IMG/VR virus record: IMGVR_UViG_3300033144_005150
Reading direction: 5' to 3' (one strand)
DNA length: 64,000 nt
Origin: an uncultured virus (IMG/VR IMGVR_UViG_3300033144_005150)
Lineage: Duplodnaviria; Heunggongvirae; Uroviricota; Caudoviricetes
Positions 1 through 13,765 of this stretch are shown one piece after another (positions within the stretch are counted from its first letter, which is position 1; each line of letters opens with the position of its first letter). A program made the translations under genes and the position numbers. Below the pieces are notes generated by a model, which had not been told where the DNA came from, searched no databases, and worked only from the letters and a program-made list of their open reading frames with translations.

Positions 1-426
1 GGTGGTGGTTTTCTTGGGTGCCGCCTTCTTGCGAGCGGTCGTTTTCTTCGCGGCTTTCTTCGCGGTCGTCTTCTTGGGGGCTGCCTTCTTGGGGGCTGCC
101 TTCTTGGGGGCTGCCTTCTTGCGAGACGTGGTTTTCTTGGCTGCCTTCTTCGCCGTCTTTTTCGGCGCAGCCTTCTTGCGAGCCGTCGTCTTCTTGGCGG
201 ATTTTTTCGCCTTGGGCTTCGCGGTTGCTTTCTTCTTCGGTGTGGTCTTGGCCACCTTGGTCTTGTTCACCTTCTTGCGGGCCGTGGTCTTCTTCGCCGT
301 CTTCTTGGCCTTGGGCTTGGCTTTCGCTTTTGCCTTCGTGCTCGAAGAGATCTTCTTGACGCGAGGGGTGGTGGCCTTCTTGGCCTTGGATTTCGCCTTC
401 GCTTTGGTCTTTGTAGCTGTCGTCAT
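1..426 (-). CDS. Histone H1-like Lys/Ala/Thr-rich DNA-binding protein (runs off the window edge)
   Basis: ATG at 426 with GGAG upstream; reads MTTATKTKAKAKSKAKKATTPRVKK... with KKAAPKK/KKTTARKK repeats. Absent from the ORF track because no stop is in the window; the 2..517 + ORF is its antisense shadow. Confidence 0.85.
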   Translation of the reverse strand, partial: MTTATKTKAKAKSKAKKATTPRVKKISSSTKAKAKAKPKAKKTAKKTTARKKVNKTKVAKTTPKKKATAKPKAKKSAKKTTARKKAAPKKTAKKAAKKTTSRKKAAPKKAAPKKAAPKKTTAKKAAKKTTARKKAAPKKTTT

Positions 427-557
427 GTGTTTCTCCATCTGTCCGTCTGAGAGGGAGCGGCAGTGCCGCATCGTGAAAATAGTACCCGCAGAAAATCAAA
501 TCGTCTCAACGGTATGATGAGGTCAGCCATGTGTTCCTCCTTTGCAGGAGAGGACGT

Positions 558-599
558 GCCCCCTTCGGATAAGTAGTGCCATCCGGAGGGGGCTTTTTT
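558..599 (+). terminator. Intrinsic terminator-like hairpin
   Basis: GCCCCCTTCGGAT-loop-ATCCGGAGGGGGC followed by T6. Confidence 0.7.
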
Positions 600-683
600 G
601 TAGTGCTTCCACCGCTGTCCAGATCGCGTAGTATGAGGACGCGGGTTCGTACAACACGGACCCATCACACGGAGACACAACAC

Positions 684-1217
684 ATGACCGACAGTAAAAA
701 AGCATCCCAGCTTCCGGGCGATGAGCCTGAAACCACTGAGACTCAAGAAACGGTGGCCACCCTCGTGGAACGCAAGACTCCAGCACCCACCCGAATCAAA
801 GGCAACAGCGTGGTTCGTGACTCGTTGCGCAGGGCACGACAAAAAGCAGAAGAGGACTCCGAGAGCAGCGTCCAGGAGTACACCCTCGTCCGGGACGACA
901 ACCGTCCTCTCCGGTTCAACGGCATCCTGGTCGGCTACAACGAAGTGAACATCGAAGAGGATCCTCGTGGGACCCAGGTCCAGATCTTCGTCACAGGCTC
1001 ACGGAAGATCATCACCGCGGTTTACCAGTGGCAGCGCAAAGAAGGGCTCGAGCGTGAACGGCACAAAGCCAAAGTTCACGAAAACCCGGAGGCGGCTGTG
1101 GAGTTCCTCGAAGAGGACGGTGGTGGAAAGCTCGGTCGGGCTTCACGGGAAGCCTGGGACATGGCCTGCCAGGTCGAACCCTCTCTCAAGGGTCACGACG
1201 TGGAAGTGATCGACTAG
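684..1217 (+). CDS. Hypothetical protein
   Basis: ATG at 684 after GGAGA; codon style matches neighbouring genes. Confidence 0.7.
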   Translation: MTDSKKASQLPGDEPETTETQETVATLVERKTPAPTRIKGNSVVRDSLRRARQKAEEDSESSVQEYTLVRDDNRPLRFNGILVGYNEVNIEEDPRGTQVQIFVTGSRKIITAVYQWQRKEGLERERHKAKVHENPEAAVEFLEEDGGGKLGRASREAWDMACQVEPSLKGHDVEVID

Positions 1218-1259
1218 GATCTCGGTGTCTTCTCTATCGGTCTCCGTAAGGTAAGACCG

Positions 1260-1571
1260 ATGGCGAAACCTATCCCGATCCCGCAGCTTCTTCTTTTCAC
1301 GCTGCCCGCAGTTTTGACGACTGTGATCTTGGCCCTGACCCCTCTTGGGTGGGACCTCCACACGCAGCTTGAAAATTCACGAGCCGAAGTCTTCGAGCTT
1401 CGTGAAGTTCTGCACACACAAGTGACCTGCACTCCGGTGCAAGTCACTTGTGTGTGTCCCGAGTACGACCAAGGCTGGGACGATGCCGAGTTTGCCGAAG
1501 GGATCGCCATCGAAGACCTCGAACTGATCTGCGCCGAGCTCAACGAGTTCGGGTACCTCCCTCGCTGCTGA
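1260..1571 (+). CDS. Hypothetical protein with N-terminal membrane/signal segment
   Basis: Hydrophobic LLLFTLPAVLTTVILAL segment, then an acidic Cys-containing C-terminus. Confidence 0.6.
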   Translation: MAKPIPIPQLLLFTLPAVLTTVILALTPLGWDLHTQLENSRAEVFELREVLHTQVTCTPVQVTCVCPEYDQGWDDAEFAEGIAIEDLELICAELNEFGYLPRC

Positions 1572-1576
1572 CCTCT

Positions 1577-1686
1577 GCGCTGGGCGTGTGGTACGCGCAG
1601 AGGAACTCGAAGCGGTAACGTTAGAGCGGGGATCTGCTTTGCCCCGGCCATTCTCTCTGTTCCAGGTTCGACTCCTGGCTGGTGCG
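1577..1686 (+). ncRNA. tRNA-like RNA with anticodon loop replaced by a two-hairpin junction
   Basis: Acceptor GCGCTGG/CTGGTGC, D-like GCGT/ACGC, stem CAGAG/CTCTG, T arm CCAGG-TTCGACT-CCTGG; about 50-nt structured insert; T run follows. Confidence 0.6.
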
Positions 1687-1730
1687 CTTTTTCTAAACTC
1701 AGGTCTTCGTCAGAAAAATGAAGAATTCGT

Positions 1731-1759
1731 TTGACTTCGCGTCTGAGCCCCGGTAAGCC
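1731..1759 (+). promoter_or_regulatory. Sigma70-like promoter upstream of leader peptide 1 and the tRNA array
   Basis: TTGACT-N17-TAAGCC; the TTGACTTC motif recurs at 8920 and 41074-41081(-). Confidence 0.55.
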
Positions 1760-1780
1760 TTTTGAACTGAGGTAGTCACC

Positions 1781-1927
1781 ATGACCAACGTCCAGAACAT
1801 CAACTGTCGAGTCTTCCAGTCCGTCGCCGCAGATCCTTCTGCAGCCGCCGCGGCAGGATCGTGCTCCGGTTCGTGCTCAGGATGGCGAGGTATGGAGCCC
1901 AGTAGTTACGTCTCCAGACGTGTCTAG
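1781..1927 (+). CDS. Putative leader peptide 1 (48 aa) for the tRNA array
   Basis: GAGGT SD then ATG; MTNVQNINCRVFQSVAADPSAAAAAGSCSGSCSGWRGMEPSSYVSRRV*; run of 18 Ser/Ala/Gly/Cys/Trp/Arg codons. Confidence 0.65.
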   Translation: MTNVQNINCRVFQSVAADPSAAAAAGSCSGSCSGWRGMEPSSYVSRRV

Positions 1928-1966
1928 TCCCCTTCGGGTGTACTAGACAACCCCGGAGGGCTCTAC

Positions 1967-2041
1967 GCCCCCGAGGCCGACTGGAGAGGCAAGAGACTTC
2001 TAATCTCGAGGTGGCAGGTTCGATTCCTGTCGGGGGTGCCA
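1967..2041 (+). tRNA. tRNA-Arg(TCT)
   Basis: Cloverleaf, anticodon loop CT-TCT-AA, encoded CCA. Confidence 0.9.
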
Positions 2042-2088
2042 AAGTCTACAACTACTGGGCGAGACCGAAGACAACGGCTCGCCAATTT

Positions 2089-2179
2089 GGAGTCGTGTCC
2101 GAGCGGTCTATGGTGCTCGGTTGCTAACCGAGTGTGGGTTCATAGCTCACCCAGGGTTCGAATCCCTGCGACTCCGCCA
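2089..2179 (+). tRNA. tRNA-Ser(GCT)
   Basis: Long variable arm, CTCGG-TT-GCT-AA-CCGAG, GCCA end. Confidence 0.95.
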
Positions 2180-2187
2180 AACAACAT

Positions 2188-2275
2188 GGAACCGTGTCCG
2201 AGAGGCTTATGGTGCTCGCTTGGAAAGCGAGTGTGGGTAAAACCACCGAAGGTTCGAATCCTTTCGGTTCCGCCA
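2188..2275 (+). tRNA. tRNA-Ser(GGA)
   Basis: Long variable arm, CTCGC-TT-GGA-AA-GCGAG, GCCA end. Confidence 0.95.
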
Positions 2276-2278
2276 AAT

Positions 2279-2369
2279 GGAAGGCCAAGCAGATGGCTGG
2301 CGACTGCACCTGGTTTGAACCCAGACGAAGTGAAAGCTCTTTGGGGTTCGATCCCCCAGCCTTCCGCCA
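2279..2369 (+). tRNA. tRNA-Ser(TGA), atypical D arm
   Basis: Acceptor GGAAGGC/GCCTTCC, loop TT-TGA-AC, long variable arm, GCCA end. Confidence 0.85.
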
Positions 2370-2419
2370 ACAACTTTTCACCCAGGAGACTCAACAAGAA
2401 CGACGACGAACAACAACTT

Positions 2420-2509
2420 GGAAGATTGGCCGAGTCTGGCTTAAGGCACCTGTTTCGAAAACAGACGTGGGTAAAACCACCAGGGGTTCGAATCCCTTAT
2501 CTTCCACCA
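2420..2509 (+). tRNA. tRNA-Ser(CGA)
   Basis: Loop TT-CGA-AA, long variable arm, ACCA end. Confidence 0.9.
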
Positions 2510-2510
2510 T

Positions 2511-2585
2511 GCGGATGTAGCTCAGGGGTAGAGCGCAACCTTGCCAAGGTTGAAGTCGTGAGTTCGAATCTCATTATCCGCTCCA
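2511..2585 (+). tRNA. tRNA-Gly(GCC)
   Basis: Canonical cloverleaf, TCCA end. Confidence 0.95.
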
Positions 2586-2587
2586 AT

Positions 2588-2663
2588 GCGTGTGTAGCTC
2601 AGTCGGTAGAGCGCTAGCTTCCCAAGCTCGAGGCCGCGAGTTCGATTCTCGCCACATGCTCCA
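2588..2663 (+). tRNA. tRNA-Gly(CCC)
   Basis: Loop TT-CCC-AA, TCCA end. Confidence 0.92.
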
Positions 2664-2678
2664 AAAAGGAACGAAACC

Positions 2679-2960
2679 ATGATCACCATCACCAAAATGA
2701 TCGAGACTTGCGGCGGCTGCCCCTCTCAATGGGACGGCTGGGATGAGGGTGGTGCGTACTTCTACTTCCGCTTCCGACACGGCTACCTCCGGGTAGATGC
2801 TCATGATCCCGATGGCCGGCCCTACACGATCCTCGGCAAAGAAGTCGGCGACAGCATGGACGGCATCATGGGCTACGAAGCCCTCAAGTTTCACCTCGAA
2901 GGCGTCCTGGAACTCCCAGACACCGAATCCCTTCCCGACCAGGACGAGCAAGCATCATGA
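2679..2960 (+). CDS. Hypothetical phage protein (CxxCPSQW...YFRFRHG)
   Basis: AAGGA SD; ATGA overlap with the next ORF. Confidence 0.7.
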   Translation: MITITKMIETCGGCPSQWDGWDEGGAYFYFRFRHGYLRVDAHDPDGRPYTILGKEVGDSMDGIMGYEALKFHLEGVLELPDTESLPDQDEQAS

Positions 2961-3166
2961 GCAAGAAAACCATCACCACCTGGGCCCAGTGCAAGTTTCA
3001 GCGTCTCGACACGGATGCCCACATCGAGACGGTAGCCAACATCGACGCGACACACGCCAAGGTGGGACGGCGCATGACTTTCAAGGGCGTCGAAGGGATC
3101 TGGCAAATCAAACAAGCGGGGCAACCCCGCGAACGTCCCAACTTCGGTTGGGGAGGGATGGACTAA
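2957..3166 (+). CDS. Hypothetical protein
   Basis: Start coupled to the preceding stop. Confidence 0.6.
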   Translation: MSKKTITTWAQCKFQRLDTDAHIETVANIDATHAKVGRRMTFKGVEGIWQIKQAGQPRERPNFGWGGMD

Positions 3167-3220
3167 ACCAATGGGGGCAAGAAACTAAGCAAGAACTTCG
3201 AGAAAGTCCGCTCGGTCGGG

Positions 3221-3598
3221 GTGACGCCCGAAGGCAAACAAGTCATCGGGGGAATTTTCCCCATGGTGAGCTCCGAGGGAATCCTCCTCGAAATCATCGT
3301 CCAGGAAATAGACTCCAAGAACTACGTCGTTGACTGGTTCGGGTTCTGGACAGACTCCGTGGAAAACGGTTGGAACCCGCGATCCACACGAACCAAGATT
3401 CTCAATTGCATAGGAGAGCAGTTCGGACCCGTGGTCCGAGAGCAACACGAGAAGCTGCTCGATCTCCTCTACAAAATCGAGATGACCAAGAAGGATGAAG
3501 ACGATTCCAAGATGAGAGAGCTGCTGCTCGAACACCGAAAACTGGAGCAGAAGGAACAGCGAAAACGATTTCTCAACACACTACACAAGCGTGCGTAA
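3221..3598 (+). CDS. Hypothetical protein
   Basis: ORF track; start uncertain; stop lies inside tRNA-Gly(TCC). Confidence 0.5.
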   Translation: MTPEGKQVIGGIFPMVSSEGILLEIIVQEIDSKNYVVDWFGFWTDSVENGWNPRSTRTKILNCIGEQFGPVVREQHEKLLDLLYKIEMTKKDEDDSKMRELLLEHRKLEQKEQRKRFLNTLHKRA

Positions 3599-3665
3599 CT
3601 CAGTGGTTTAGAGTGTCTGCCTTCCAAGCAGAGGGTCGAGGGTTCGAATCCCTCCGCGCGCTCCA
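3589..3665 (+). tRNA. tRNA-Gly(TCC)
   Basis: TCTGC-CT-TCC-AA-GCAGA, TCCA end. Confidence 0.93.
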
Positions 3666-3666
3666 T

Positions 3667-3819
3667 GTTTTCGTAGTTCAATGCCAGAACAGCCGGATAA
3701 CGCCTCCTTCGCGGAGGGGTGCTCGGGCGGAACAGGGCCGGTCATATCCGCGGATAAAATGACCGGTCACTACCGCTGCAAACGAGTGGCAAATGCGGGT
3801 TGGATTCCCGCCGAGAACA
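3667..3819 (+). ncRNA. tRNA-like RNA with an approximately 95-nt structured domain in place of the anticodon loop
   Basis: Acceptor GTTTTCG/CGAGAAC, D arm GTTC/GAAC, stem GCC/GGC, T arm GCGGG-TTGGATT-CCCGC; insert has nested helices. Confidence 0.65.
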
Positions 3820-3825
3820 ACTTTA

Positions 3826-3905
3826 GGGGTACGGGACTGCAAGGGGTGGTCGCTTGATTTGCACTCAGGAAATACAGCAGGGTTCGATTCCCTGGTACTC
3901 CACCA
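3826..3905 (+). tRNA. tRNA-Ala(TGC), atypical
   Basis: G3:U70 pair, loop TT-TGC-AC, ACCA end; non-standard D and variable regions. Confidence 0.8.
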
Positions 3906-3928
3906 AAACGAAACGAAACGAAACGAAC

Positions 3929-4213
3929 ATGGCCAAAGCAATCGAAATCGACGGGGTCCTCTACCGGAAGCGGAGAGGGAAACTCGTGAAGATCCCTGAC
4001 GAGTGGGTGGGCAAAACTGTGGGTCGTCATGCCAAAAGCAAACGGCACTCCAAGACGAAGGCCAAGCGCATCTACACCGGCATCAACCGAGCGAAAGAGC
4101 ACGACCAGCTCCGACACGACGAAGATCCAAACCCGGCCGAGTCCAAACAGTTCGGTCGCTGGCACTACTGCTCGGGTCGCACCGACCAGTACCGAGACAA
4201 GCACAAGTCATGA
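3929..4213 (+). CDS. Small basic hypothetical protein
   Basis: MAKAIEIDGVLYRKRRGK...; preceded by (AAACG)n spacer. Confidence 0.6.
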   Translation: MAKAIEIDGVLYRKRRGKLVKIPDEWVGKTVGRHAKSKRHSKTKAKRIYTGINRAKEHDQLRHDEDPNPAESKQFGRWHYCSGRTDQYRDKHKS

Positions 4214-4404
4214 GTCAGAAGATCAACTACCGTCGAGATGCGAAGCGCCATCAGGACAACGGACCCACCTACGAAGGTGGCCCTCCGAACTCCGGCTGCA
4301 ACTCGACACACGTCGCCCGATCTCGTCGGGGCTGGCGGAACATCCGGCGTCGAAAGGAACGGCGCCAAGAGCAACAAGAGATCAAGCAGCAAATGGGACA
4401 TTAG
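4210..4404 (+). CDS. Small Arg-rich hypothetical protein
   Basis: MSQKINYRRDAKRH...; ATGA overlap; stop inside tRNA-Ala. Confidence 0.55.
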   Translation: MSQKINYRRDAKRHQDNGPTYEGGPPNSGCNSTHVARSRRGWRNIRRRKERRQEQQEIKQQMGH

Positions 4405-4470
4405 CTCAGTTGGGAGAGCGCCTGCCTTGCAAGCAGGAAGTCGTCGGTTCGATTCCGACATGTTCCACCA
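4395..4470 (+). tRNA. tRNA-Ala(TGC)
   Basis: Canonical cloverleaf, G3:U70, ACCA end. Confidence 0.95.
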
Positions 4471-4594
4471 GCCATGTACGAGAACGAAAACGAAGTATGG
4501 CTTAGCCTCGATTGGGGGGCGCTCGGACGCCTCGGGGTCTATGTAGATCCTTGGCCGATGGGAGCCATCCCACCAAACGACGGAAGATACGAAG

Positions 4595-4969
4595 ATGGAA
4601 ATTTCACGAACACAACTAATCGATCACCTGGGCAGCATGACTGTCATGGAGATGTGCGACCTGACCCGAGACCTTGAGGAGACCTGGGGAGTCTCGGCAA
4701 CGCCGCAGATCACCCAGACCACGGGAGCTCCGACAGGGGAGCCCGCTCCTGAGCAGACCGAGTTCGACGTGATCCTCGAAAGTTTCGGGGAGAAGAAGAT
4801 CCCCGTCATCAAGACGCTCCGTGCGGAGATGCCGGGACTCGGTCTCAAGGAGGCCAAGTTCCTGGTGGAACAAGCACCTGCACCGATCAAGGAAGATGTC
4901 TCAAAGGAAGAGGCTGAAAATCTCAAGGCCGAGCTCGAGAAGGCGGGCGCGACGGTCACGATCAAGTAA
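4595..4969 (+). CDS. rplL: 50S ribosomal protein L7/L12 (bL12), full length
   Basis: N-domain ...[22 protein letters not shown]-domain EQTEFDVIL...KIPVIK...GLGLKEAK...[11 protein letters not shown]. Confidence 0.95.
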
Positions 4970-5001
4970 CGTACAAGCCCCCGATCTTCGCGGGGGCACA
5001 T

Positions 5002-5077
5002 GGGGTGGTAGCTCAGATGGGAGAGCATCGCACTGGCAGTGCGAAGGTCAAGGGTTCGATCCCCTTTCACTCCACCA
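5002..5077 (+). tRNA. tRNA-Ala(GGC)
   Basis: TCGCA-CT-GGC-AG-TGCGA, G3:U70, ACCA end. Confidence 0.95.
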
Positions 5078-5225
5078 GTTTTTTCACTCGCCACAGGAAT
5101 GGTCTTGTGGCATCATGGGTCCTGAGAGAGACCAGCAAATCACTCTCACGGGTCTGAAGCCCGGTAAGAGCCGCAGCCATTTCGGAGCGGTACGGGTAGG
5201 CGAAAGCCAAGGAGAGAGACGCAAG

Positions 5226-5291
5226 ATGGAACACATTCAAGTAAACAAGAACTTCTGGTGTAGCTGGTATCCCACGGGGGAAACCGGGTAA
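5226..5291 (+). CDS. Putative Trp/Cys attenuator leader peptide (21 aa)
   Basis: AAGGAGAG upstream; MEHIQVNKNFWCSWYPTGETG*; TGG-TGT-AGC-TGG at 5256-5267. Confidence 0.75.
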   Translation: MEHIQVNKNFWCSWYPTGETG

Positions 5292-5315
5292 GCACAGCCG
5301 CATCTTGCGCTGTAA

Positions 5316-5345
5316 GCCGCCCGGTCTCTGGACCCGGCGGCTTTT
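5316..5345 (+). terminator. Attenuator terminator upstream of tRNA-Trp/Cys/Trp and trpS
   Basis: GCCGCCCGGTC-TCTG-GACCCGGCGGC-TTTT; its 5' arm can alternatively pair with ACCGGGT at 5283-5289. Confidence 0.75.
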
Positions 5346-5353
5346 CTCGTTCT

Positions 5354-5428
5354 GGGGTATTAGCTCAGCTTGGTAGAGCGGTGGTCTCCAAAACCGCGAC
5401 AGCGGGGGTTCAAATCCCTCATGCCCTA
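5354..5428 (+). tRNA. tRNA-Trp(CCA), G1:U72/A73, no encoded CCA
   Basis: GTGGT-CT-CCA-AA-ACCGC anticodon arm. Confidence 0.85.
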
Positions 5429-5434
5429 CAACAT

Positions 5435-5510
5435 GGCTCGATGGCCGAGTGGCTTTAGGCACCGGATTGCAACCCCGGTTAGATCAGTTCGATTCTGATT
5501 CGAGCCTCCA
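5435..5510 (+). tRNA. tRNA-Cys(GCA)
   Basis: Loop TT-GCA-AC, U73, CCA end. Confidence 0.92.
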
Positions 5511-5523
5511 ATTTCAACTTCAT

Positions 5524-5594
5524 AGGTCGCGGTCTGGGACCGGGCGAGACTCCAAATTTTGCCTAGCAGGGTTCGATCCCCTGGTGGCCTGCCA
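5524..5594 (+). tRNA. tRNA-Trp(CCA), short with miniature D arm
   Basis: A1:U72, G73-CCA, GGTC-TGG-GACC D arm, loop CT-CCA-AA. Confidence 0.75.
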
Positions 5595-5615
5595 ACCAAC
5601 GAAAGGACGGACAAC

Positions 5616-6602
5616 ATGAATCGAATACTGACTGGGATCCAGCCCTCGGGAGAGCTGCATCTTGGGAACTACTTCGGGGCCGTGCAGCCCTGTCTTCGAC
5701 ACCAGGAAAATCCGTCTTCGGATCTCTTGATGTTCATCGCGGACTACCACGCTCTGACGACCGTGCATGACGGGGTCCTTCTTTCAAGGAACTCGCTCAA
5801 CTTGGCCGAGGGCCTCCTCGCTCTGGGAATCGATCCCGAGCAGACGATCCTCTTCCAGCAGTCAGATGTCGAGTACGTCGCCGAGCTGACCCTGTTGCTC
5901 ACGATGGTCACGGGGATGGGCACCCTCCAGCGGTCTCCGTCCTACAAGGACAAGGTTGCCAAGGGGATTACCCCGAGCGTCGGGTTGTTCATCTACCCGA
6001 TGATCATGGCGGCCGACATCCTGCTCTACCAGAGCGACATCGTTCCGGTCGGCAAGGACCAGACCGCGCATGTCAAGATGGCTCGACAGATAGGCACGCA
6101 CTTCAACGAGACGTTCGGCCCCGTGTTCAACCTCCCCAAAGCCGTCCTCTCCGAAGTCCCTAAAGTGCCCGGTCTCGACGGGGAGAAGATGAGCAAGAGC
6201 TACGGCAACACCATCTCCGTGTTCGATCGCGGAAACACCCTGCGGGCCAAACTCGCCGGCATCAAAACCACCTCAACCCCTTTCGGAGAACCACTTCCCA
6301 TTGACGACTGCCATCTTTTCGAGCTGATCAAGCTCATGTGCTCCACCAGCGCCGAGCTCGAGGAAGTCACCCAGTTTTTCCGGACAGGCCGACGTGGCTC
6401 CCAGAAGTTCGGATACGGCCACGCCAAGGAGCTGCTGGCCGAAAAGATCGAAACCACTTTCGCCGAAGCGAATGAGCGCCGGCAGGATTTTCTCCCCCAT
6501 CGCATCGAGGTCATAGGAGCCCTGAGTCAGGGCGCGACCAAAGCACGGAGGATCGCAAAGGAAACCCTCGACAAGTGCCGATCCCTCTGTGGCATCGGCT
6601 AA
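5616..6602 (+). CDS. trpS: Tryptophanyl-tRNA synthetase
   Basis: TGIQPSGELHLGNY, YPMIMAADILL, VPVGKDQ, KMSKS motifs. Confidence 0.95.
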   Translation: MNRILTGIQPSGELHLGNYFGAVQPCLRHQENPSSDLLMFIADYHALTTVHDGVLLSRNSLNLAEGLLALGIDPEQTILFQQSDVEYVAELTLLLTMVTGMGTLQRSPSYKDKVAKGITPSVGLFIYPMIMAADILLYQSDIVPVGKDQTAHVKMARQIGTHFNETFGPVFNLPKAVLSEVPKVPGLDGEKMSKSYGNTISVFDRGNTLRAKLAGIKTTSTPFGEPLPIDDCHLFELIKLMCSTSAELEEVTQFFRTGRRGSQKFGYGHAKELLAEKIETTFAEANERRQDFLPHRIEVIGALSQGATKARRIAKETLDKCRSLCGIG

Positions 6603-6659
6603 ACACCCACCCTCAACCAAGGAGACTGTTTCAACGAAACACCGAGTAAAAACCATACC

Positions 6660-7253
6660 GTGATACGGATTGTTGGACCCAGGGACAGCCATTACGACCG
6701 CCACAACTGCACGGTGATCAACACCACCAGCAGGGCCTCGGCCCGTGACGCATGGTCTCGAGGGCTCAGCCCCTTCCACATCGGCCCTGTGCAGCTCTAC
6801 GAGGGAGCGGCAGCCGAGACCTCCCACAACGTCGAGAATGCCTGGCAGTACGCCAAGGTGTACCCGGTCCACGTTGACAAAGAGGAGAACCCAACCCAGG
6901 CGTACTTCGACTGGGCTCGGGAAGGCTGGAGAACTCGGAGAGCGATTCGCTACCCGATGGGGAAAGGTGCCGTCCCCCTCTACTCGTGGTGGGCTGGTGA
7001 AAAGCTGAGCTACGTGGACGCCCGGAAGAAGATCTACGTGCCGCTCTACACGAAGGCCGTGATCGATACGAAGGCGTTCGCAAAACTCCGTGAACTTCAT
7101 CAAACGCTGGACGAGATCTGGCTCTGGGACTTCGACGGGTACGACCACGTCGAGCTCGGGATGACGCTCAAGGAGGTCCTCAACGATCCGGCCAGGAAGA
7201 TGGGCCACGCATTCGTGCTGGCCATGATCCTGGAAGCGATGGACAAACGGTAG
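6660..7253 (+). CDS. DUF6939-like protein
   Basis: INTTSR...LSPF...NVENAWQYAKVY...ARKKIYVPLY pattern, recognised from memory. Confidence 0.55.
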   Translation: MIRIVGPRDSHYDRHNCTVINTTSRASARDAWSRGLSPFHIGPVQLYEGAAAETSHNVENAWQYAKVYPVHVDKEENPTQAYFDWAREGWRTRRAIRYPMGKGAVPLYSWWAGEKLSYVDARKKIYVPLYTKAVIDTKAFAKLRELHQTLDEIWLWDFDGYDHVELGMTLKEVLNDPARKMGHAFVLAMILEAMDKR

Positions 7254-7350
7254 TCCCACGGTATTCGCTAACTTGGTCCTCGACGGACCAAGTCCAGCGT
7301 GTAGAATTTGGTCTGTGGCGTTGTGCCACCTAGTTGAAAGGAGAAGACAA

Positions 7351-7785
7351 ATGCAGGAAGCAATCAAAACTACCTACGACACTCTCACTACGGGCCTCCA
7401 CCGGGCCCCGGTGGAGAAGACCCCAGCCTACTACCTCCAAAAGTGGAGACGTAGGAAAGGTCTGATCCAGCGCCCCGGTGGAGGGAAGATCGAGAAGTTC
7501 AGGCGAATTTCCCGTTTTCAGAACGTCTCATTCAAGGACATCATCGAGGATCGCCTGCCTCGGGTCTTCACGAGTGAGTACCATTTCTACCGGTGGAACG
7601 TTGGCAAGCTCCTTTGCGTCTACTGCAACTGCGAGCTGACTCGCAACAACAAGACTCAGGACCACGTCGTCCCTCGTGCTCGCGGGGGATCTCTCCTTGG
7701 GTCTGACAACCTCGAGCCAGCCTGCATCGAGTGCAACTCGGCAAAAGGCGACATGAAGCTGCTGGTGTTCCTCGTTACGAGGTAA
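7351..7785 (+). CDS. HNH endonuclease
   Basis: CVYC...DHVVPRARGG...NLEPACIECN. Confidence 0.85.
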   Translation: MQEAIKTTYDTLTTGLHRAPVEKTPAYYLQKWRRRKGLIQRPGGGKIEKFRRISRFQNVSFKDIIEDRLPRVFTSEYHFYRWNVGKLLCVYCNCELTRNNKTQDHVVPRARGGSLLGSDNLEPACIECNSAKGDMKLLVFLVTR

Positions 7786-7802
7786 CTTGGCAAACACATC
7801 TT

Positions 7803-7840
7803 GAAATCCCTGACAGTCCAACTGGCAGGGATTTCTTTTT
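7803..7840. terminator. Terminator between convergent genes
   Basis: GAAATCCCTG...CAGGGATTTC followed by T run. Confidence 0.7.
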
Positions 7841-7849
7841 GCGTGTGGC

Positions 7850-8116
7850 CTAGGAGCGGTTGCCCCCACGCGGCTTGTCGTTGGCCGGCTGGATGTTGAC
7901 GTTGCGCCCGTCGAGGCTGATCGATGCAGCTTTGATCGCCGCTTCGGCACCAGCCGCTTCCTTGAACGTGACGAACCCGAAACCCTTGGATTTGTTGGTG
8001 TCGCGATCCATCACGATTTTCACTTCTTCGACCGGGCCGAAGTCGGTCATGGCCATTTGCAGGCCGAGATCATCAGTTGCCCACGCGAGGCCGCCACAGA
8101 AGACTTTGTTTGCCAT
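7850..8116 (-). CDS. RRM (RNP-1) RNA-binding protein
   Basis: RNP2 KVFCGGL; RNP1 KGFGFVTF. Confidence 0.92.
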   Translation of the reverse strand: MANKVFCGGLAWATDDLGLQMAMTDFGPVEEVKIVMDRDTNKSKGFGFVTFKEAAGAEAAIKAASISLDGRNVNIQPANDKPRGGNRS

Positions 8117-8287
8117 TTTTTCGTTCCTGTTCTCTCAAATGTGAGAGGTCTACCAAGTGTTATACGCGAAAACTTTTGGGTTTTCGTGAAACTCAGCTTT
8201 CGCCGTTCGAGAAGCCTTTGAGGCTCTGGGTGTGGGTTCCTTCGTTTGGTCCCGATGGGGCTACGACTGGTGGGTACAAGTGGAGAG

Positions 8288-8923
8288 ATGGCCGATCAAG
8301 ACGCCCCCAAGCCCGAGAAGCAGATTCCACCTTTGCGACAACGACCCTGTGTCGTCATCGACACCGAAACGACCGGTCTCGATCCCAAGATTCACGAAGT
8401 CCTCGAAATCGCCATCGTGGCCCTCGACGGCACCGTGCTCCTGAACACCAAGATCAAGCCCGTGAATATCGAGGCGGCCCATCCGAAGGCGCTCGAAGTC
8501 AACGGCTACAACGAGGCCGACTGGGCCAACGCTCCGACCTTCGATGAGACCAAAGACGAGATCATGGCGGCGCTCAAGCACAAGATCCTGGTGGGTCAGA
8601 ACCCCCACTTCGACCGCAGCTTCATCGTCGAAGCGCTGGACCGGTGTGGCGTCGAGAAGGCGTACCGCAAGCTCAGCTACCATGCGATCGACACGATCAC
8701 CCTGGCGTGGGAGCACCTGGCTCCGTGCGGGCTCGAACGCCTCAACCTCGACGCCATCTGCGAGTTCCTGGGGGTCCCCCTCGACCGTGAATCTCGGCAC
8801 GGGGCCTTGGCAGATGCCCAGGCAGCGCGTGTCGTGTACCTGATGACCTTGCGTGCGACCGAGGAGCTCCGGCTCGCATGGCGTCAACGCGCCAAAGACC
8901 TGGGTCTCCTGACCGTAGATTGA
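8288..8923 (+). CDS. DEDDh 3'-5' exonuclease (DnaQ-like)
   Basis: IDTETTG, GQNPHFD, HGALADA. Confidence 0.9.
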   Translation: MADQDAPKPEKQIPPLRQRPCVVIDTETTGLDPKIHEVLEIAIVALDGTVLLNTKIKPVNIEAAHPKALEVNGYNEADWANAPTFDETKDEIMAALKHKILVGQNPHFDRSFIVEALDRCGVEKAYRKLSYHAIDTITLAWEHLAPCGLERLNLDAICEFLGVPLDRESRHGALADAQAARVVYLMTLRATEELRLAWRQRAKDLGLLTVD

Positions 8924-8953
8924 CTTCTATCACAGCAGTGCTATAGTGGGGGT

Positions 8954-9295
8954 ATGGTTTCCAAAAAACCCCGCAAGCAGTGTGCGAAGTGCCCATGGAA
9001 GGTGAGCACGAACCCGCACGATATCCCGAACGGCTACTGCGAAACTCAGCACGCCGCGCTCTCCTCCACGGTCGCCACTCCTGGTGATCTTCGGGGTCTC
9101 GGTGCGCCGGTTCACATGATGGCGTGCCACGAAACCGAGGTCGGAAAAGAGCTGCCGTGTGTGGGGTGGTTGGATCACCAGCTTGGCGCGGGCAACAACC
9201 TGGGGCTGCGGCTGGCTGTGATCCAAGGGCGCATCGACGGCAACGTCGAAGTTGAGGGTGAACAGCACCCGACCCTGGAAGACACCCTTCCATGA
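8954..9295 (+). CDS. Cys-rich protein (DUF6283-like)
   Basis: CAKCPW...MACHE...CVGWL. Confidence 0.6.
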   Translation: MVSKKPRKQCAKCPWKVSTNPHDIPNGYCETQHAALSSTVATPGDLRGLGAPVHMMACHETEVGKELPCVGWLDHQLGAGNNLGLRLAVIQGRIDGNVEVEGEQHPTLEDTLP

Positions 9296-9316
9296 AGCTG
9301 GGGCGGTACCAATAGA

Positions 9317-9341
9317 AAAGGGGACCCGAAGGTCCCCTTTT
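9317..9341. terminator. Bidirectional terminator
   Basis: AAAAGGGGACC-CGAA-GGTCCCCTTTT between convergent genes. Confidence 0.8.
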
Positions 9342-9356
9342 CATTTTCACGAACGG

Positions 9357-12346: not shown

Positions 12347-12584
12347 GGACTTCGTCAGTTTCGGCCGCCCATGTACTTGACGCAGTAGTCCATGAACTCC
12401 GGAGGGTCCATGCGCTCGAACTCATCGCAGCGTGGTTCTTGGTGAAAACACGCACGTATCCATCGCGCTCGATCCACTTACCTTCCCATGCCTTAAGTCC
12501 GCATGGGCAACTGAACTCGGTCACATTGACGAGTTTGATGTCCCCGAGGCCCTCCACGGTGACGGTGGTTTCGGTTTCCGTCAT
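12321..12584 (-). CDS. Hypothetical protein
   Basis: GGAG-preceded ATG overlapping the ARH stop; MTETETTVTVEG... Confidence 0.55.
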   Translation of the reverse strand: MTETETTVTVEGLGDIKLVNVTEFSCPCGLKAWEGKWIERDGYVRVFTKNHAAMSSSAWTLRSSWTTASSTWAAETDEVRAPDRSSD

Positions 12585-13765
12585 GACTCCTCCGAGGTCC
12601 GGCTTGCCTCCCAAGCTGCCAGTCGTTCGGCGTACTGGCTTTCCACGATGCCGTGCATGGTCTCGGTCAGCTCGCCCAAACCTTCCCAGGTCCACTGCTC
12701 GGCCTTGATGTCGTGGACGACGGGGGCGACGTGTTCGAGCACCTCTTTCGGGAACTTCTCGACCCCGATGTTGGCCCCCACGATGGTCGCAGCCATGGCC
12801 GCGATGGTGTCGGAGTCTCCTCCCACGGCGATGGCGGTCGTGATGGCCTTCCACACGTCCGTAGGAGCCGCCATGACGCAGTAGAAAGCCCACAGCGTCG
12901 AGCTGCGCGCCCAGGGGCTCACGCCCTCCCAGGAGGCGTCGTCGCCTTCCAGGACGAAGTCACGGGCCGCTGCGAACTCGTCGTCTCCGGCCTTCCACTT
13001 GACCGTCTTGCGACCGTCCCAAACGATCTTGGTCAGATCACGGATGTCCTGGGCGAATTCCTCGTGGTTCGTCTGGACGTGGGCCGCCAGCCAGTTCCAC
13101 CAACCGGGCTCGTGCGGGCCCGTGGTGCTCTCACTGGCGGTCAGCGCCATCGCGGTCGCCACGGCCATACCCACTCCAGCCGCGACGGATATCGGAGCCT
13201 TGTGCGTGATGATGGCTTGTTCGGCTGCAGCTTTCACGCAGGTCGGAACGTCGTGGTAGTAGAACATGCCGATCGGGCCAGCTCGCATGGCGGCTCCGTT
13301 GCCGGCTCGAGGGGGCGGAGTTCCGGCCTCGTCCCAGGGCACACCGTCGAGCAGACGGATGGCCGCTTGTTGGGTGGCTCCTCCGTATCCCACGATGGCG
13401 TCCTGAGCGAAGAGTTTGGCCACGCGATCGGCGAAGTCCTGGGGCACGAACTCGTTCTCATCGATCAGGGAGATCATGAGCTCCCGGCTGAGTTGCGTGT
13501 CGTCGGTGTACTGGCCGAAGCGCATCCCGTGGTGGTGTGTCCCGATGCTGTCGAAGTCGAACTCACCGAGGGTGGCTGCGAAGTCACGGGCCTCTGAGGC
13601 AGGGCGACGTTCGGCCCAGGCGCCCACGGAGTCTCCGAGCGCACAGCCAAGGAGGGCACCTTGGTAGCGGCTCAGGGAGGCTGGAGCGACGGGAGGGATG
13701 GCGTCTGGATCGGGTCCGATGGTGCGGACTTCGTTAGCCGGGGTGTGGATGCTTCGTACGTTCAT
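12581..13765 (-). CDS. ADP-ribosylglycohydrolase (DraG/ARH family)
   Basis: GALLGCALGD, YTDDTQ, GNGAAMR, GDSDT. Confidence 0.92.
   Translation of the reverse strand: MNVRSIHTPANEVRTIGPDPDAIPPVAPASLSRYQGALLGCALGDSVGAWAERRPASEARDFAATLGEFDFDSIGTHHHGMRFGQYTDDTQLSRELMISLIDENEFVPQDFADRVAKLFAQDAIVGYGGATQQAAIRLLDGVPWDEAGTPPPRAGNGAAMRAGPIGMFYYHDVPTCVKAAAEQAIITHKAPISVAAGVGMAVATAMALTASESTTGPHEPGWWNWLAAHVQTNHEEFAQDIRDLTKIVWDGRKTVKWKAGDDEFAAARDFVLEGDDASWEGVSPWARSSTLWAFYCVMAAPTDVWKAITTAIAVGGDSDTIAAMAATIVGANIGVEKFPKEVLEHVAPVVHDIKAEQWTWEGLGELTETMHGIVESQYAERLAAWEASRTSEES

What the first reader, a model, noticed from the sequence alone, without database searches (positions are those of the whole stretch)
1577..1686. 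Second anticodon-less tRNA mimic, with a G3:U70 pair
Seen: perfect T arm (CCAGG TTCGACT CCTGG), miniature D arm and CAGAG/CTCTG stem capped by a junction with two hairpins (AGCG-GTAA-CGTT and CGGGG/CCCCG). The acceptor stem has G3:U70. Established: G3:U70 is the AlaRS determinant also used by tmRNA, but there is no room for a tag ORF and the discriminator is G. Inference: the same design principle as the 3667 RNA with an unrelated insert, suggesting a class of modular tRNA-scaffold RNAs.
Basis: partly seen in the sequence, partly recalled or inferred. Interest (0 to 1): 0.7.

Follow-up and report, generated by a model that had tools for sequence, protein, structure and literature searches.

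The report
Conserved tRNA-shaped RNA in huge phages
A group of very large phages from marine sediments carries a conserved gene for a small RNA that has the upper half of a tRNA but a three-armed module where the anticodon arm should be, so it is not an ordinary tRNA, and its job is still unknown.

Summary
Ten further distinct homologues lie at the same place in related huge-phage contigs. On the 11-sequence alignment 96.2% of pair cells are standard pairs and 21 of 36 pairs change on both sides; slid controls give 40-52% and 1-6 pairs. A model built from them scores members at 61.6-115.5 bits and every ordinary tRNA at 36.6 bits or less.

Shared anatomy:
- a 12-bp acceptor/T stack and an invariant T loop;
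- a tiny D arm containing GG;
- a 7-bp stem ending in a three-way junction with strands of 2, 0 and 7 nt;
- a hairpin capped by GNRA (10 of 11);
- a hairpin with a pyrimidine-rich loop;
- an invariant GCCAU strand placed like positions 32-36 of an anticodon loop.

The AlaRS/tmRNA reading fails: G3:U70 occurs in 1 of 11 sequences, and a 97%-identical relative has A3:U70.

ARAGORN and Rfam do not recognise the RNA. It is neither a decayed tRNA nor an intron-bearing one.

Best reading: a non-decoding RNA matured through its tRNA-like half, carrying a conserved module as payload. A cis role in forming the upstream mRNA's 3' end is the main rival. The closest known kind is phage T4 rnaC, with no homology.

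The parts
1577..1583 (+). acceptor stem, 5' strand
   Evidence: Pairs with 1679-1685. Helix 1 has 95.8% of cells paired and 3 of 7 pairs changed on both sides. In a 97% relative, positions 3, 4 and 5 change and all three pairs are kept.
1584..1596 (+). miniature D arm: 4-5 bp stem, 3-nt loop UGG, no 8-9 linker
   Evidence: Helix 2 is 100% paired. G8-C20 (window) becomes A-U in 5 others and in the X3 relative, where both sides change. A second subgroup (L005, L007, L009, L011, L012) has only about 2 bp around a GGGUU loop. The GG is kept in all.
1597..1603 (+). long stem S, 5' strand (7 bp, in place of the anticodon stem)
   Evidence: Helix 3 pairs 1597-1603 with 1654-1660: 93.4% paired, 4 of 7 pairs changed on both sides.
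1604..1605 (+). junction strand J1, 2 nt in 11 of 11
   Evidence: Alignment A4.
1606..1626 (+). hairpin H1: 4-bp base, internal loop, 4-bp top, GNRA tetraloop (GUAA)
   Evidence: Helices 4 and 5 have 6 of 8 pairs changed on both sides. GNRA caps the hairpin in 10 of 11 (not L005). GUAA becomes GUGA in the X3 relative.
1627..1646 (+). hairpin H2: 5-bp stem directly abutting H1 (J2 = 0 nt), 10-nt loop AUCUGCUUUG
   Evidence: Helix 6 is 100% paired with 4 of 5 pairs changed on both sides. The loop is 10-13 nt and pyrimidine-rich, (G/C)CUUU-like in 10 of 11.
1647..1653 (+). junction strand J3, 7 nt in 11 of 11: GCCAU invariant, then G in 10 of 11 (U in the window)
   Evidence: Invariant columns of A4. 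It lies against the 3' strand of stem S as positions 32-38 of an anticodon loop would (my reading of the structure).
1654..1660 (+). long stem S, 3' strand
   Evidence: helix 3.
1662..1678 (+). T arm, with loop UUCGACU invariant in 11 of 11
   Evidence: Helix 7 is 100% paired with 3 of 5 pairs changed on both sides. In the second subgroup the T stem is 6 bp and the acceptor stem 6 bp, so the coaxial stack stays at 12 bp (my reading).
1679..1686 (+). acceptor stem 3' strand (1679-1685) and discriminator G1686
   Evidence: After the discriminator, CC follows in 8 of 11 and CCA in 3 of 11 (L002, L013, L014); the window has CUU.
1260..1571 (+). upstream gene: about 100-aa protein with an N-terminal hydrophobic segment and a conserved Cys-rich C-terminus ending ...GY.P.C*; its stop codon lies 5 nt before the RNA
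   Evidence: The ORF is kept in 13 of the 14 loci examined, and also in loci that lack the RNA. The gap from stop codon to RNA is 5-8 nt in 10 of 11. No Pfam family.
1413..1456 (+). 20-bp hairpin (one mismatch) inside the upstream ORF; possible processing site
   Evidence: It is kept in L001, L002 and L013 with compensating changes. Contigs from two RNA libraries start at 1445, in its 3' arm.
1731..1736 (+). TTGACT of a conserved promoter-like element downstream of the RNA
   Evidence: A cTTGAC(T)-type hexamer with a TAnnnn hexamer 17 nt on, then GAGGT and ATG, is seen in all 11 downstream flanks. The simple consensus scan does not call it.

Best explanation
Window 1577-1686 is the gene of a roughly 110-nt, non-decoding, tRNA-shaped RNA. 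It is specific to one clade of huge phages found in marine-sediment and cold-seep metagenomes, and it occurs once per genome.

Shown: a conserved tRNA upper half joined to a 7-bp stem. The upper half is a 12-bp acceptor/T stack, an invariant T loop and a D loop with GG that can form the elbow. The stem opens into a three-way junction of fixed geometry (2/0/7 nt) with a GNRA-capped hairpin, a second hairpin with a pyrimidine-rich loop, and an invariant GCCAU strand.

Inferred:
- The upper half makes the transcript a substrate of the tRNA maturation machinery. That means RNase P cutting at 1576/1577, and 3' trimming plus CCA addition or repair by the host's enzyme or by the phage's own CCA-adding-family enzyme. 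The result would be a nuclease-resistant small RNA.
- The three-way-junction module is the payload. It binds a protein or RNA partner from the tRNA/translation world, as a decoy, sponge or adaptor.
- The RNA does not decode on the ribosome and has no fixed amino-acid identity.

My confidence that it is a real, selected, structured tRNA-like RNA is about 0.9. The figure below is for the trans-acting payload mechanism.
For: - Homologues. Eleven distinct sequences lie at one syntenic place, between an approximately 100-aa protein gene and a promoter-like element ahead of tRNA-Arg(UCU).
- Covariation. 96.2% of cells are paired, 21 of 36 pairs change on both sides, 0 of 500 shuffles reach this, and slid controls give 1-6 pairs.
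- Close-relative test. The 97% relative in run X3 differs at 9 RNA positions. Five lie in stems and keep pairing, including G8-C20 to A8-U20. The other four lie in loops, and GUAA becomes GUGA. None is in GCCAU or the T loop.
- Separation from tRNAs. Model R1 gives members 61.6-115.5 bits. The best non-member scores 32.7 bits in 37 sources, 36.6 bits in 80 prokaryote-genome loci, and nothing at E<=0.001 in 80 further IMG/VR loci.
- Copy number. There is one copy in each of two 90-92% complete genomes of 618.7 and 230.1 kb.
- Selection beyond a processing signal. GCCAU is invariant, junction strand lengths are 2/0/7 in 11 of 11, and GNRA is present in 10 of 11, while neighbouring stems vary freely.
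- tRNA-type 3' end. CC follows the discriminator in 8 of 11 and CCA in 3 of 11. Both near-complete relatives encode a PolyA_pol/CCA-adding-family enzyme.
- No fixed identity. The discriminator is A 6, G 4, U 1, and pair 3-70 is variable.
- Weak expression hint. Two metatranscriptome-labelled runs from two studies each hold a 100%-identical contig covering exactly 1445-1681. They hold nothing at 1300-1435 or 1708-1979, while DNA runs read on.
Against: - No partner is known, and no experiment bears on processing, stability or binding.
- The RNA-library contigs run from 1445 across the predicted RNase P site at 1577. So at least some molecules are unprocessed, or the libraries contain DNA (one search says contigs cannot show ends or transcription).
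- The gene sits 5-8 nt behind a stop codon and ahead of a promoter-like element. This fits a cis-acting 3'-end element equally well.
- Encoded CCA is rarer here (3 of 11) than in the true tRNAs of the same loci (90 of 125).
- The RNA is missing from 3 related loci with the same gene order (L006, L008, L010), so it is dispensable.
- The 11 sequences are related, so pair counts overstate the number of independent events.
Confidence: 0.45

Rival explanations
1. Cis-acting 3'-end element of the upstream operon, like the t-elements of plant mitochondria or the mascRNA of MALAT1. The tRNA-like fold recruits RNase P and 3' enzymes and may also stop transcription. This defines and stabilises, or destabilises, the 3' end of the mRNA for the A1 protein and the 100-aa protein. 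On this reading the small RNA itself is a by-product.
For: The RNA starts 5-8 nt after the stop codon in 10 of 11, and about 40 nt after the previous gene's stop in L005. A conserved TTGACT promoter-like element follows in all 11. A T run of 4 or more lies within 12 nt of the 3' end in 5 of 11 (window, L001, L002, L013, L011). RNA-library contigs join the ORF's 3' part to the RNA and stop at 1681. A conserved 20-bp hairpin lies 120 nt upstream, where those contigs begin.
Against: A processing signal needs only the acceptor/T half. It does not explain the invariant GCCAU, the fixed 2/0/7 junction, the GNRA cap or the covarying H1 and H2. Loci L006, L008 and L010 keep the upstream genes without the RNA. 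The consensus terminator scan finds nothing here.
Confidence: 0.27
2. A tRNA with a decorated anticodon loop. The invariant 7-nt strand GCCAU(G)N acts as an anticodon-loop surrogate presenting CAU (or CCA). Stem S plus the D stem total 9-12 layers, against about 10 in a tRNA, so the triplet sits at roughly the canonical distance. The RNA would then be charged, modified or cleaved by an enzyme or toxin specific for that triplet (MetRS, TilS, TrpRS, a VapC-like nuclease; these names are recalled, not tested). It would serve as a decoy or as a non-ribosomal aminoacyl carrier.
For: J3 is 7 nt in 11 of 11, GCCAU is invariant, and a purine follows in 10 of 11. Two nucleotides separate CAU from the stem's 3' strand, as positions 37-38 do in a tRNA (structure). 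CC(A) follows the discriminator in most members. The phage encodes TrpRS 4 kb away.
Against: Position '33' is C, not U, and '32' is G. Any 7-nt strand contains some triplet, so CAU by itself carries no weight. The discriminator varies, A 6, G 4, U 1. The 618-kb relative already has four canonical CAU tRNAs with ordinary CUCAUAA loops, and the RNA's body resembles none of them. The tRNA model gives no hit even at E<=10.
Confidence: 0.12
3. An ordinary tRNA gene interrupted by an intron that is spliced out to give a decoding tRNA.
For: The insert sits where tRNA introns sit. ARAGORN calls part of the L011 homologue tRNA-Arg(ccg), 82 nt.
Against: Rfam gives no group I intron or other ribozyme hit. 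The 50-nt insert is far below the group I size I recall (about 200 nt or more). Removing H1 and H2 leaves no loop with U33. The candidate triplets at the base of H1 are in a covarying helix and would change amino-acid identity between homologues (UCG, CUG). The D arm and the 1-nt variable region are not those of a decoder. The ARAGORN call in L011 starts inside the RNA and ignores the covarying acceptor stem.
Confidence: 0.03
4. tmRNA-like or AlaRS-directed mimic.
For: G3.U70 is present in the window. The D arm is reduced in one subgroup, as in the tRNA-like domain of tmRNA.
Against: G3.U70 occurs in 1 of 11, and the closest relative has A3-U70. There is no tag reading frame or pseudoknot. ARAGORN's tmRNA search and the Rfam tmRNA models are silent.
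Confidence: 0.02
5. A decaying tRNA pseudogene or a chance fold.
For: Folding energy is no better than shuffles. The element is absent from three related loci.
Against: The compensatory changes in all seven helices, the invariant single-stranded motifs, and the spread across loci whose flanking protein is only 41-79% identical.
Confidence: 0.02

Closest known systems
Phage T4 species 1 RNA (rnaC, 139 nt) and species 2 RNA (rnaD, 119 nt), annotated small stable RNAs in the T4 tRNA gene cluster
   Same: Phage-encoded, sitting in or at the edge of a tRNA gene array and next to a tRNA-Arg gene. rnaC carries a tRNA-type T arm (CCGGG-UUCGAAU-CCCGG), terminal pairing and long hairpins instead of an anticodon arm. 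Function unknown (recalled).
   Different: No homology. R1 gives rnaC 15.9 bits, the level of ordinary T4 tRNAs (9.4-20.2 bits), against 61.6-115.5 bits for members. The insert architecture differs, and T4 lacks the three-way junction with GCCAU and GNRA.
tmRNA tRNA-like domain
   Same: An acceptor/T stack with a reduced D region and a large non-tRNA body in place of the anticodon arm.
   Different: G3:U70 is not conserved, there is no tag ORF and no pseudoknots, the RNA is 110 nt, and neither ARAGORN nor Rfam gives a hit.
Bacterial Y RNA-like YrlA (Rfam RF02553), partner of Ro/Rsr
   Same: A non-coding RNA with a tRNA-like module (T arm, D arm with GG) fused to another module. Ro-type proteins occur in some jumbo phages (PMC7824862, passages read).
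   Different: In YrlA the RNA's ends lie at the anticodon side and the acceptor stem is closed by a loop (recalled). Here the ends form the acceptor stem. There is no RF02553 hit at the locus. No TROVE protein is found in the window or in two near-complete relatives.
t-elements of plant mitochondria and the mascRNA of MALAT1: tRNA-like structures used as RNase P / RNase Z signals at mRNA ends
   Same: A tRNA-like fold directly behind a coding region and before the next transcription unit. The t-element paper PMC1920247 was seen only as a listing and abstract start.
   Different: Those elements need only the tRNA-like half. This RNA also keeps a conserved, covarying module. Processing was not tested here.
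Engineered 'tRNA scaffold' for recombinant RNA expression
   Same: Same design principle: an RNA of interest replaces the anticodon arm, so the chimera is processed and protected like a tRNA. This is recalled; PMC3753655 from the same approach was seen as a listing and abstract start.
   Different: That is a laboratory construct. This one is natural and under selection.

Membership tests
tRNA (Rfam RF00005; ARAGORN) | Cloverleaf recognised by tRNA models, with a 7-nt anticodon loop carrying U33 and a purine at 37 | tested here: not met
   ARAGORN finds 14 tRNAs in the window but none at 1577-1686. RF00005 gives no hit there at gathering score, at E<=10 on 4.7 kb or at E<=10 on 141 nt. The place of the loop holds a three-way junction.
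tRNA (Rfam RF00005; ARAGORN) | Acceptor stem stacked on a T arm with a GTTCRA-type loop, and a D loop with GG for the elbow | tested here: met
   Helices 1 and 7 covary, the T loop TTCGACT is invariant, and GG is kept in the D loop in 11 of 11.
tmRNA | G3:U70 alanine identity pair conserved | tested here: not met
   G.U in 1 of 11; G-C 8, A-U 1, A/C 1. The X3 relative has A-U.
tmRNA | Tag reading frame and pseudoknots between the two halves of the tRNA-like domain | tested here: not met
   The insert is 57 nt between the stem strands, made of two simple hairpins. ARAGORN's tmRNA search is silent, as are the Rfam tmRNA models.
YrlA / Y RNA with Ro | Match to RF02553 and a Ro-binding terminal helix | tested here: not met
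   No RF02553 hit at the locus. The weak YrlA hits lie at 2555-2612 and 3631-3693, on tRNA T arms.
YrlA / Y RNA with Ro | Ro/TROVE protein encoded by the same genome | tested here: not met
   No TROVE domain among the 64 window ORFs scanned. PF05731 is found in 0 of 2 near-complete relatives. The window itself covers only 64 kb of its genome.
Phage tRNA-like stable RNAs (T4 rnaC/rnaD kind) | Encoded in or beside a phage tRNA gene array | tested here: met
   The RNA lies 280 nt upstream of tRNA-Arg(UCU), at the head of a 14-tRNA array, with the same order in the related loci.
Phage tRNA-like stable RNAs (T4 rnaC/rnaD kind) | Sequence or structure homology to rnaC or rnaD | tested here: not met
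   R1 with filters off gives rnaC 15.9 bits and no hit on rnaD.
Phage tRNA-like stable RNAs (T4 rnaC/rnaD kind) | Accumulates as a discrete stable small RNA in infected cells | not testable with these tools
   There is only a weak hint: identical contigs covering 1445-1681 in two RNA-labelled runs. Contigs cannot show ends or levels.
t-element / mascRNA type processing signals | tRNA-like fold abutting an mRNA end | tested here: met
   The RNA begins 5-8 nt after the stop codon in 10 of 11, and a promoter-like element follows in 11 of 11.
t-element / mascRNA type processing signals | RNase P / RNase Z cleavage creates the mRNA end | not testable with these tools
   No raw reads were available. 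The contigs run across the predicted site.
Intron-bearing bacterial tRNA (group I intron in the anticodon loop) | Group I catalytic core, and a canonical anticodon loop after removal of the intron | tested here: not met
   No intron or ribozyme family is hit. No way of removing the insert gives U33 in more than 3 of 11 sequences (alignment).

The most novel reading that the evidence does not exclude
The invariant GCCAU(G)N heptamer is a working anticodon-loop surrogate. On this reading the RNA is a tRNA whose anticodon loop carries a rigid two-hairpin rod on its 5' side. It presents CAU (or CCA) at the canonical distance from a CCA end. A triplet-specific tRNA enzyme or host toxin would recognise it and charge, modify or cut it. 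The phage would then have a decoy that protects its Met/fMet/Ile2 or Trp tRNAs, or a dedicated non-ribosomal aminoacyl carrier. Together with the unrelated RNA at 3667-3822, it would mark a general phage strategy of building effector RNAs on tRNA frames.
Probability: 0.12. Interest if true: 0.8.

Novelty: new variant of a known kind. Interest (0 to 1): 0.55.

Why it matters
Phage tRNA arrays are usually read only as codon-usage or anti-defence tRNA supplies. This locus shows a well-supported family, with seven covarying helices and invariant single-stranded motifs, that uses the tRNA frame for something other than decoding and that tRNA finders and Rfam both miss. The T4 species 1 and 2 RNAs are, as far as I recall, still without a function. 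A family with a compact, sharply defined module (GNRA hairpin, U-rich loop, GCCAU strand) offers mutable targets for finding the partner of such RNAs. If the partner is a host tRNA-directed defence or a translation factor, this would be a new kind of RNA-based counter-defence. If the role is in cis, it would bring the mitochondrial t-element logic to phage operons. In practice, model R1 and the pattern GGCCAT-N12-14-GGTTCGACTCC can be used to annotate the family.

Tried and rejected
- **Cultured phages.** blastn of 1400-1900 found no match. Megablast of 1-12000 matched only a tRNA-Ala in 7 records.
- **IMG/VR, close searches.** Close-protein searches with the A1 protein and with TrpRS found nothing. 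An exact 24-mer of the RNA found nothing.
- **Own genome.** None is held for this window.
- **Looser pattern in IMG/VR.** 118 or more stretches matched. Of the 80 fetched and scanned, only the record already known is a member. The unfetched rest is untested.
- **Pattern in prokaryote genomes.** Of the 80 scanned, none is a member; they look like class II tRNAs whose variable arm begins GGCCAT.
- **Fold of the upstream A1 protein as a clue to a partner.** The model has pLDDT 69.2. The best Foldseek match has E 0.083, and the best VIA-align match has Z 4.7, rmsd 3.4 A over 82 residues, to a designed protein. No lead.
- **Search for tertiary or pseudoknot covariation among unpaired columns.** Only isolated column pairs turned up: 49 with 83 (C-G in 10, A-U in the window), and 29 with 92 (four pair types). 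That is too little to claim.
- **Consensus promoter/terminator scan.** Nothing at the locus.
- **The 14-mer around TTGACT.** It is not repeated in the window beyond chance: 12 matches against 9.7 expected.
- **'Sole CAU tRNA' idea.** The 618-kb relative has four canonical CAU tRNAs. In the 230-kb relative none was seen, but only the stretches around Rfam tRNA hits were fetched, so that says little.
- **Derivation from tRNA-Arg.** The acceptor sequences and the position beside tRNA-Arg hinted at it, but the relative's four Arg tRNAs show no clear likeness.
- **Absence of cover in the RNA-labelled runs.** The gaps at 1300-1435 and 1708-1979 are only a weak hint.
- **Literature.** Six full-text searches, plus passages of PMC7824862 and PMC13096335, found no description of this RNA. 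One search failed on a term that was too short.
Full report
**Observation.**
- A 7-bp acceptor stem with three G.U pairs, including G3.U70.
- A 13-nt mini D arm.
- The stem CAGAG/CUCUG.
- The hairpins AGCG-GUAA-CGUU and CGGGG/CCCCG.
- A perfect T arm, CCAGG-UUCGACU-CCUGG.
- Discriminator G, with no CCA after it.

The minimum-free-energy fold is this cloverleaf with a three-way junction. Its energy is ordinary, though (z -0.29; 70 of 200 shuffles fold as well). ARAGORN finds 14 tRNAs in the window and nothing here. Rfam gives no hit at gathering score, at E<=10 over 4.7 kb, or at E<=10 on the 141 nt alone. The single sequence therefore proves little, and the case rests on comparison.

**What the window is.** It is 58.7% G+C. 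It encodes a ribosomal protein L7/L12, a TrpRS, an RNase T-like exonuclease, ribonucleotide reductase, RecA and a RecD2-like helicase that both carry inteins, and NAD-related enzymes. It also holds a long tRNA array.
- It has no close relative among cultured phages.
- Relatives are IMG/VR records of 618,736 and 230,069 bp, rated 92% and 90% complete, with 55 and 31 tRNA-model matches.
- Public runs that hold the stretch are labelled marine sediment, cold seep, seawater and hydrothermal vent metagenomes.

I read it as part of a huge phage genome. The host is unknown.

**Homologues.** The protein encoded just upstream (576-1217, about 177 aa in its relatives) has 28 homologues in the large protein collection. 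A scan of metagenome contigs with their alignment gave 13 loci.
- Nine of the 13 (L001, L002, L004, L005, L007, L009, L011, L012, L013) hold a look-alike of the RNA at the same place. That place is downstream of this protein and upstream of tRNA-Arg(UCU), Ser x4, Gly and so on.
- L006, L008 and L010 keep the gene order without the RNA. In L008 and L010 a 127-aa ORF lies there instead.
- L003 diverges downstream of the protein.
- A pattern built from the two invariant motifs found 23 stretches in IMG/VR. Two are members: L014, and L034, which is identical to L005.
- In all there are 11 distinct sequences.

**Structure by comparison.** I gave one structure of 36 pairs in seven helices to the 11-sequence alignment.
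- 96.2% of 370 cells are standard pairs.
- 21 pairs show changes on both sides, in 65 cells.
- The covariation score is 0.499 against 0.240 for shuffles, and 0 of 500 shuffles reach it.
- Sliding the 3' partners by 1-3 columns drops pairing to 39.5-51.9% and leaves 1-6 pairs with double changes.
- Every helix shows at least one double change.

An independent check comes from run X3, whose 21-kb contig is a 97% relative.
- It differs at nine RNA positions.
- Positions 3, 4 and 5 of the acceptor stem change G.U to A-U, C-G to U.G and U.G to C-G.
- Positions 8 and 20 change together, G-C to A-U.
- The other four lie in loops. GUAA becomes GUGA, still a GNRA loop.
- None touches the T loop or GCCAU.

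A covariance model built from the alignment (R1) separates members from tRNAs.

| Search | Result |
|---|---|
| Members | 61.6-115.5 bits |
| Best non-member, 37 sources | 32.7 bits |
| 80 prokaryote-genome pattern hits | 36.6 bits or less |
| 80 further IMG/VR pattern hits | only the known record |
| T4 tRNAs and rnaC | 20.2 bits or less |
| Two near-complete relatives | one copy each |

**Anatomy.** These features are shared by all or nearly all members.
- **Acceptor/T stack.** It is 12 bp, either 7+5 or, in the subgroup L005/L007/L009/L011/L012, 6+6.
- **T loop.** UUCGACU is invariant.
- **D region.** It follows the acceptor stem without the usual two linker nucleotides. It is reduced to a 4-5-bp stem with a 3-nt loop, or to about 2 bp around GGGUU. 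GG is always kept, so a tRNA elbow is plausible.
- **Stem S.** It is 7 bp, with a single nucleotide between it and the T stem.
- **Three-way junction.** Its strands are 2, 0 and 7 nt in 11 of 11.
- **Hairpin H1.** A 4-bp base, an internal loop and a 3-4-bp top, capped by GNRA in 10 of 11.
- **Hairpin H2.** It abuts H1 directly and has 5 bp. Its 10-13-nt loop is (G/C)CUUU-like in 10 of 11.
- **Strand J3.** It reads GCCAU (invariant), then G (10 of 11; U in the window), then N.

Because J2 is zero, H1 and H2 can stack into one rod. J3 then lies against the 3' strand of stem S exactly as positions 32-38 of an anticodon loop lie against positions 39-43. That would put CAU where an anticodon would be, or CCA one register earlier. 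This placement is my reading of the structure, not a result.

**What it is not.**
- **Not an ordinary or decayed tRNA.** The insert is the most constrained part, and tRNA models do not see the RNA.
- **Not an intron-bearing tRNA.**
  - No ribozyme family matches.
  - The 50-nt insert is far smaller than group I introns as I recall them.
  - No excision restores U33.
  - The triplets at the base of H1 sit in a covarying helix.
  - ARAGORN's 'tRNA-Arg(ccg)' in L011 starts inside the RNA and ignores the covarying acceptor stem.
- **Not tmRNA-like.** G3.U70 is a private feature of the window (1 of 11; the closest relative has A-U). There is no tag frame and no pseudoknot.
- **Not YrlA.** There is no model hit and the topology is opposite. 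No TROVE protein is found in the window or in the two near-complete relatives.
- **No fixed amino-acid identity.** The discriminator is A in 6, G in 4 and U in 1, and it differs between the near-identical L007 and L009.

**Context and expression.**
- The RNA begins 5-8 nt after the stop codon of a conserved gene in 10 of 11. That gene encodes a protein of about 100 aa with a hydrophobic N-terminus and a Cys-rich C-terminus. In L005 the gene is missing, and the RNA follows the previous gene by about 40 nt.
- After the discriminator, CC follows in 8 of 11 and CCA in 3 of 11. Among the true tRNAs of the same loci, 90 of 125 end in CCA.
- Both near-complete relatives encode a PolyA_pol/CCA-adding-family enzyme.
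- A T run of 4 or more follows within 12 nt in 5 of 11.
- In all 11 there then comes a conserved element: TTGACT, 17 nt, a TAnnnn hexamer, GAGGT and ATG. It heads a conserved 46-50-aa ORF rich in Cys, Ser and Gly, followed by a hairpin and tRNA-Arg(UCU).
- The RNA therefore closes one transcription unit and precedes the likely start of the next.
- Two runs labelled metatranscriptomic, from two studies, each contain a contig identical to the window over exactly 1445-1681. They show nothing at 1300-1435 or 1708-1979, while DNA runs read through.
- The tool warns that this is only a weak hint. The libraries may hold DNA, and contigs show no ends.
- Taken at face value, some RNA molecules join the last 130 nt of the ORF to the tRNA-like RNA and end near its 3' end.
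- The start at 1445 falls in the 3' arm of a 20-bp hairpin (1413-1456). L001, L002 and L013 keep this hairpin with compensating changes although it lies in coding sequence. RNase III cutting there is my guess.

**Mechanism.**
- **Shown.** A selected, structured RNA with a tRNA upper half and a conserved three-way-junction module, in one copy per genome, at the end of an operon beside a tRNA array.
- **Inferred (0.45).** The upper half recruits RNase P, 3' trimming and CCA addition. This gives a stable small RNA whose module binds a partner from the tRNA or translation world. It would be a natural version of the laboratory 'tRNA scaffold', acting as decoy, sponge or adaptor.
- **Main rival (0.27).** A cis-acting 3'-end and processing element for the upstream mRNA, like mitochondrial t-elements. 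Position and the RNA contigs favour it. The invariant GCCAU, the fixed junction and the covarying H1 and H2 are more than such a signal needs.
- **Third reading (0.12).** GCCAU(G)N works as an anticodon-loop surrogate, recognised by a triplet-specific enzyme or toxin.
  - Any 7-nt strand contains some triplet, so CAU alone weighs little.
  - Position 33 would be C.
  - The 618-kb relative already has four canonical CAU tRNAs.

**Comparison with the known, and novelty.**
- The closest known kind is the pair of T4 stable RNAs, rnaC and rnaD. They are annotated beside tRNA-Arg at the end of the T4 tRNA cluster. rnaC has a tRNA-type T arm and long hairpins.
- There is no homology: rnaC scores 15.9 bits with R1.
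- Earlier notes of this scan list several other phage 'tRNA-shaped RNAs with inserts'. They are unchecked leads, and none matches this sequence.
- Six literature searches found no description of this family.
- I class it as a new variant of a known kind. It is a new, well-supported family of phage tRNA-frame RNAs with an unusually well-defined module.

**Limits.**
- The 11 sequences are related and come from one phage clade, so pair counts overstate independent events.
- Only contigs, not raw reads, could be laid on the window.
- No experiment bears on processing, charging or binding.

Noticed in passing
window 3667-3822 (+); L001 13239-13365: A second tRNA-shaped RNA: acceptor GUUUUCG/CGAGAAC, a normal D arm, T arm GCGGG-UUGGAUU-CCCGC, and three to four hairpins in place of the anticodon arm. 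Its fold has z -3.63. L001 keeps the frame, with a U.G to C-G change in the acceptor stem and a much shorter central hairpin. It is unrelated in sequence to the 1577 RNA.
   Followed up: partly
window 1413-1456 (+): A 20-bp hairpin with one mismatch lies inside the coding sequence of the upstream 100-aa protein (peptide ...TQVTCTPVQVTCVC...). L001, L002 and L013 keep it with compensating changes. Contigs from the RNA-labelled runs begin at 1445, in its 3' arm, so it may be an RNase III-type processing site.
   Followed up: partly
window 1781-1927 (+), behind TTGACT at 1731-1736: A conserved 46-50-aa ORF (...INCRAFQS..AAAAGSCSGSCSGWRG...SSRRV*) is present in all 13 related loci that cover the place. 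Synonymous changes between loci suggest that it codes. It is a Cys/Ser/Gly-rich peptide of unknown role, and a RiPP-like precursor is only a guess. It is followed by a hairpin and tRNA-Arg(UCU).
   Followed up: partly
window 3826-3905 (+): ARAGORN calls this tRNA-Ala(UGC), with G3:U70 and an encoded CCA. It has an odd D arm (3-bp stem, 11-nt loop) and an 8-nt variable region. Rfam's tRNA model gives it only 22.3 bits, below the 29-bit cut-off.
   Followed up: no
window 5524-5594 and 2279-2369 (+): ARAGORN calls a second tRNA-Trp(CCA) of 71 nt (5524-5594) and a tRNA-Ser(UGA) (2279-2369) that Rfam's tRNA model does not report at gathering score. The Ser gene appears only as a sub-threshold tRNA-Sec match (31.3 bits).
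   Followed up: no
window 4595-4969 and 5616-6602 (+): The tRNA array contains phage-encoded ribosomal protein L7/L12 (both Pfam domains) and a class I TrpRS, next to two tRNA-Trp genes.
   Followed up: no
window 53041-56715 and 59758-62439 (+): A RecD2-like helicase and RecA are each interrupted by an intein with a LAGLIDADG endonuclease domain.
   Followed up: no
window 12581-13819, 14021-14794, 21523-22593 (-): A cluster of NAD/ADP-ribose-related genes: ADP-ribosylglycohydrolase, a NUDIX hydrolase with an NrtR winged-helix domain, and NAD synthase. A protein kinase (15512-17203) and a PP2C phosphatase (17432-18388) lie nearby.
   Followed up: no
L008 1400-1783 and L010 790-1173: In two related loci the place of the RNA is taken by a 127-aa ORF of unknown function. 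L006 has neither. The RNA is therefore an exchangeable accessory element within a conserved gene order.
   Followed up: partly
window 2085-2277 versus the X3 contig: In the 97% relative, the 191 nt holding tRNA-Ser(GCU) and tRNA-Ser(GGA) are replaced by 219 other letters. Meanwhile 1687-2085 is identical and 1300-1686 differs at 23 places. The mosaic suggests recombination within the tRNA array.
   Followed up: no
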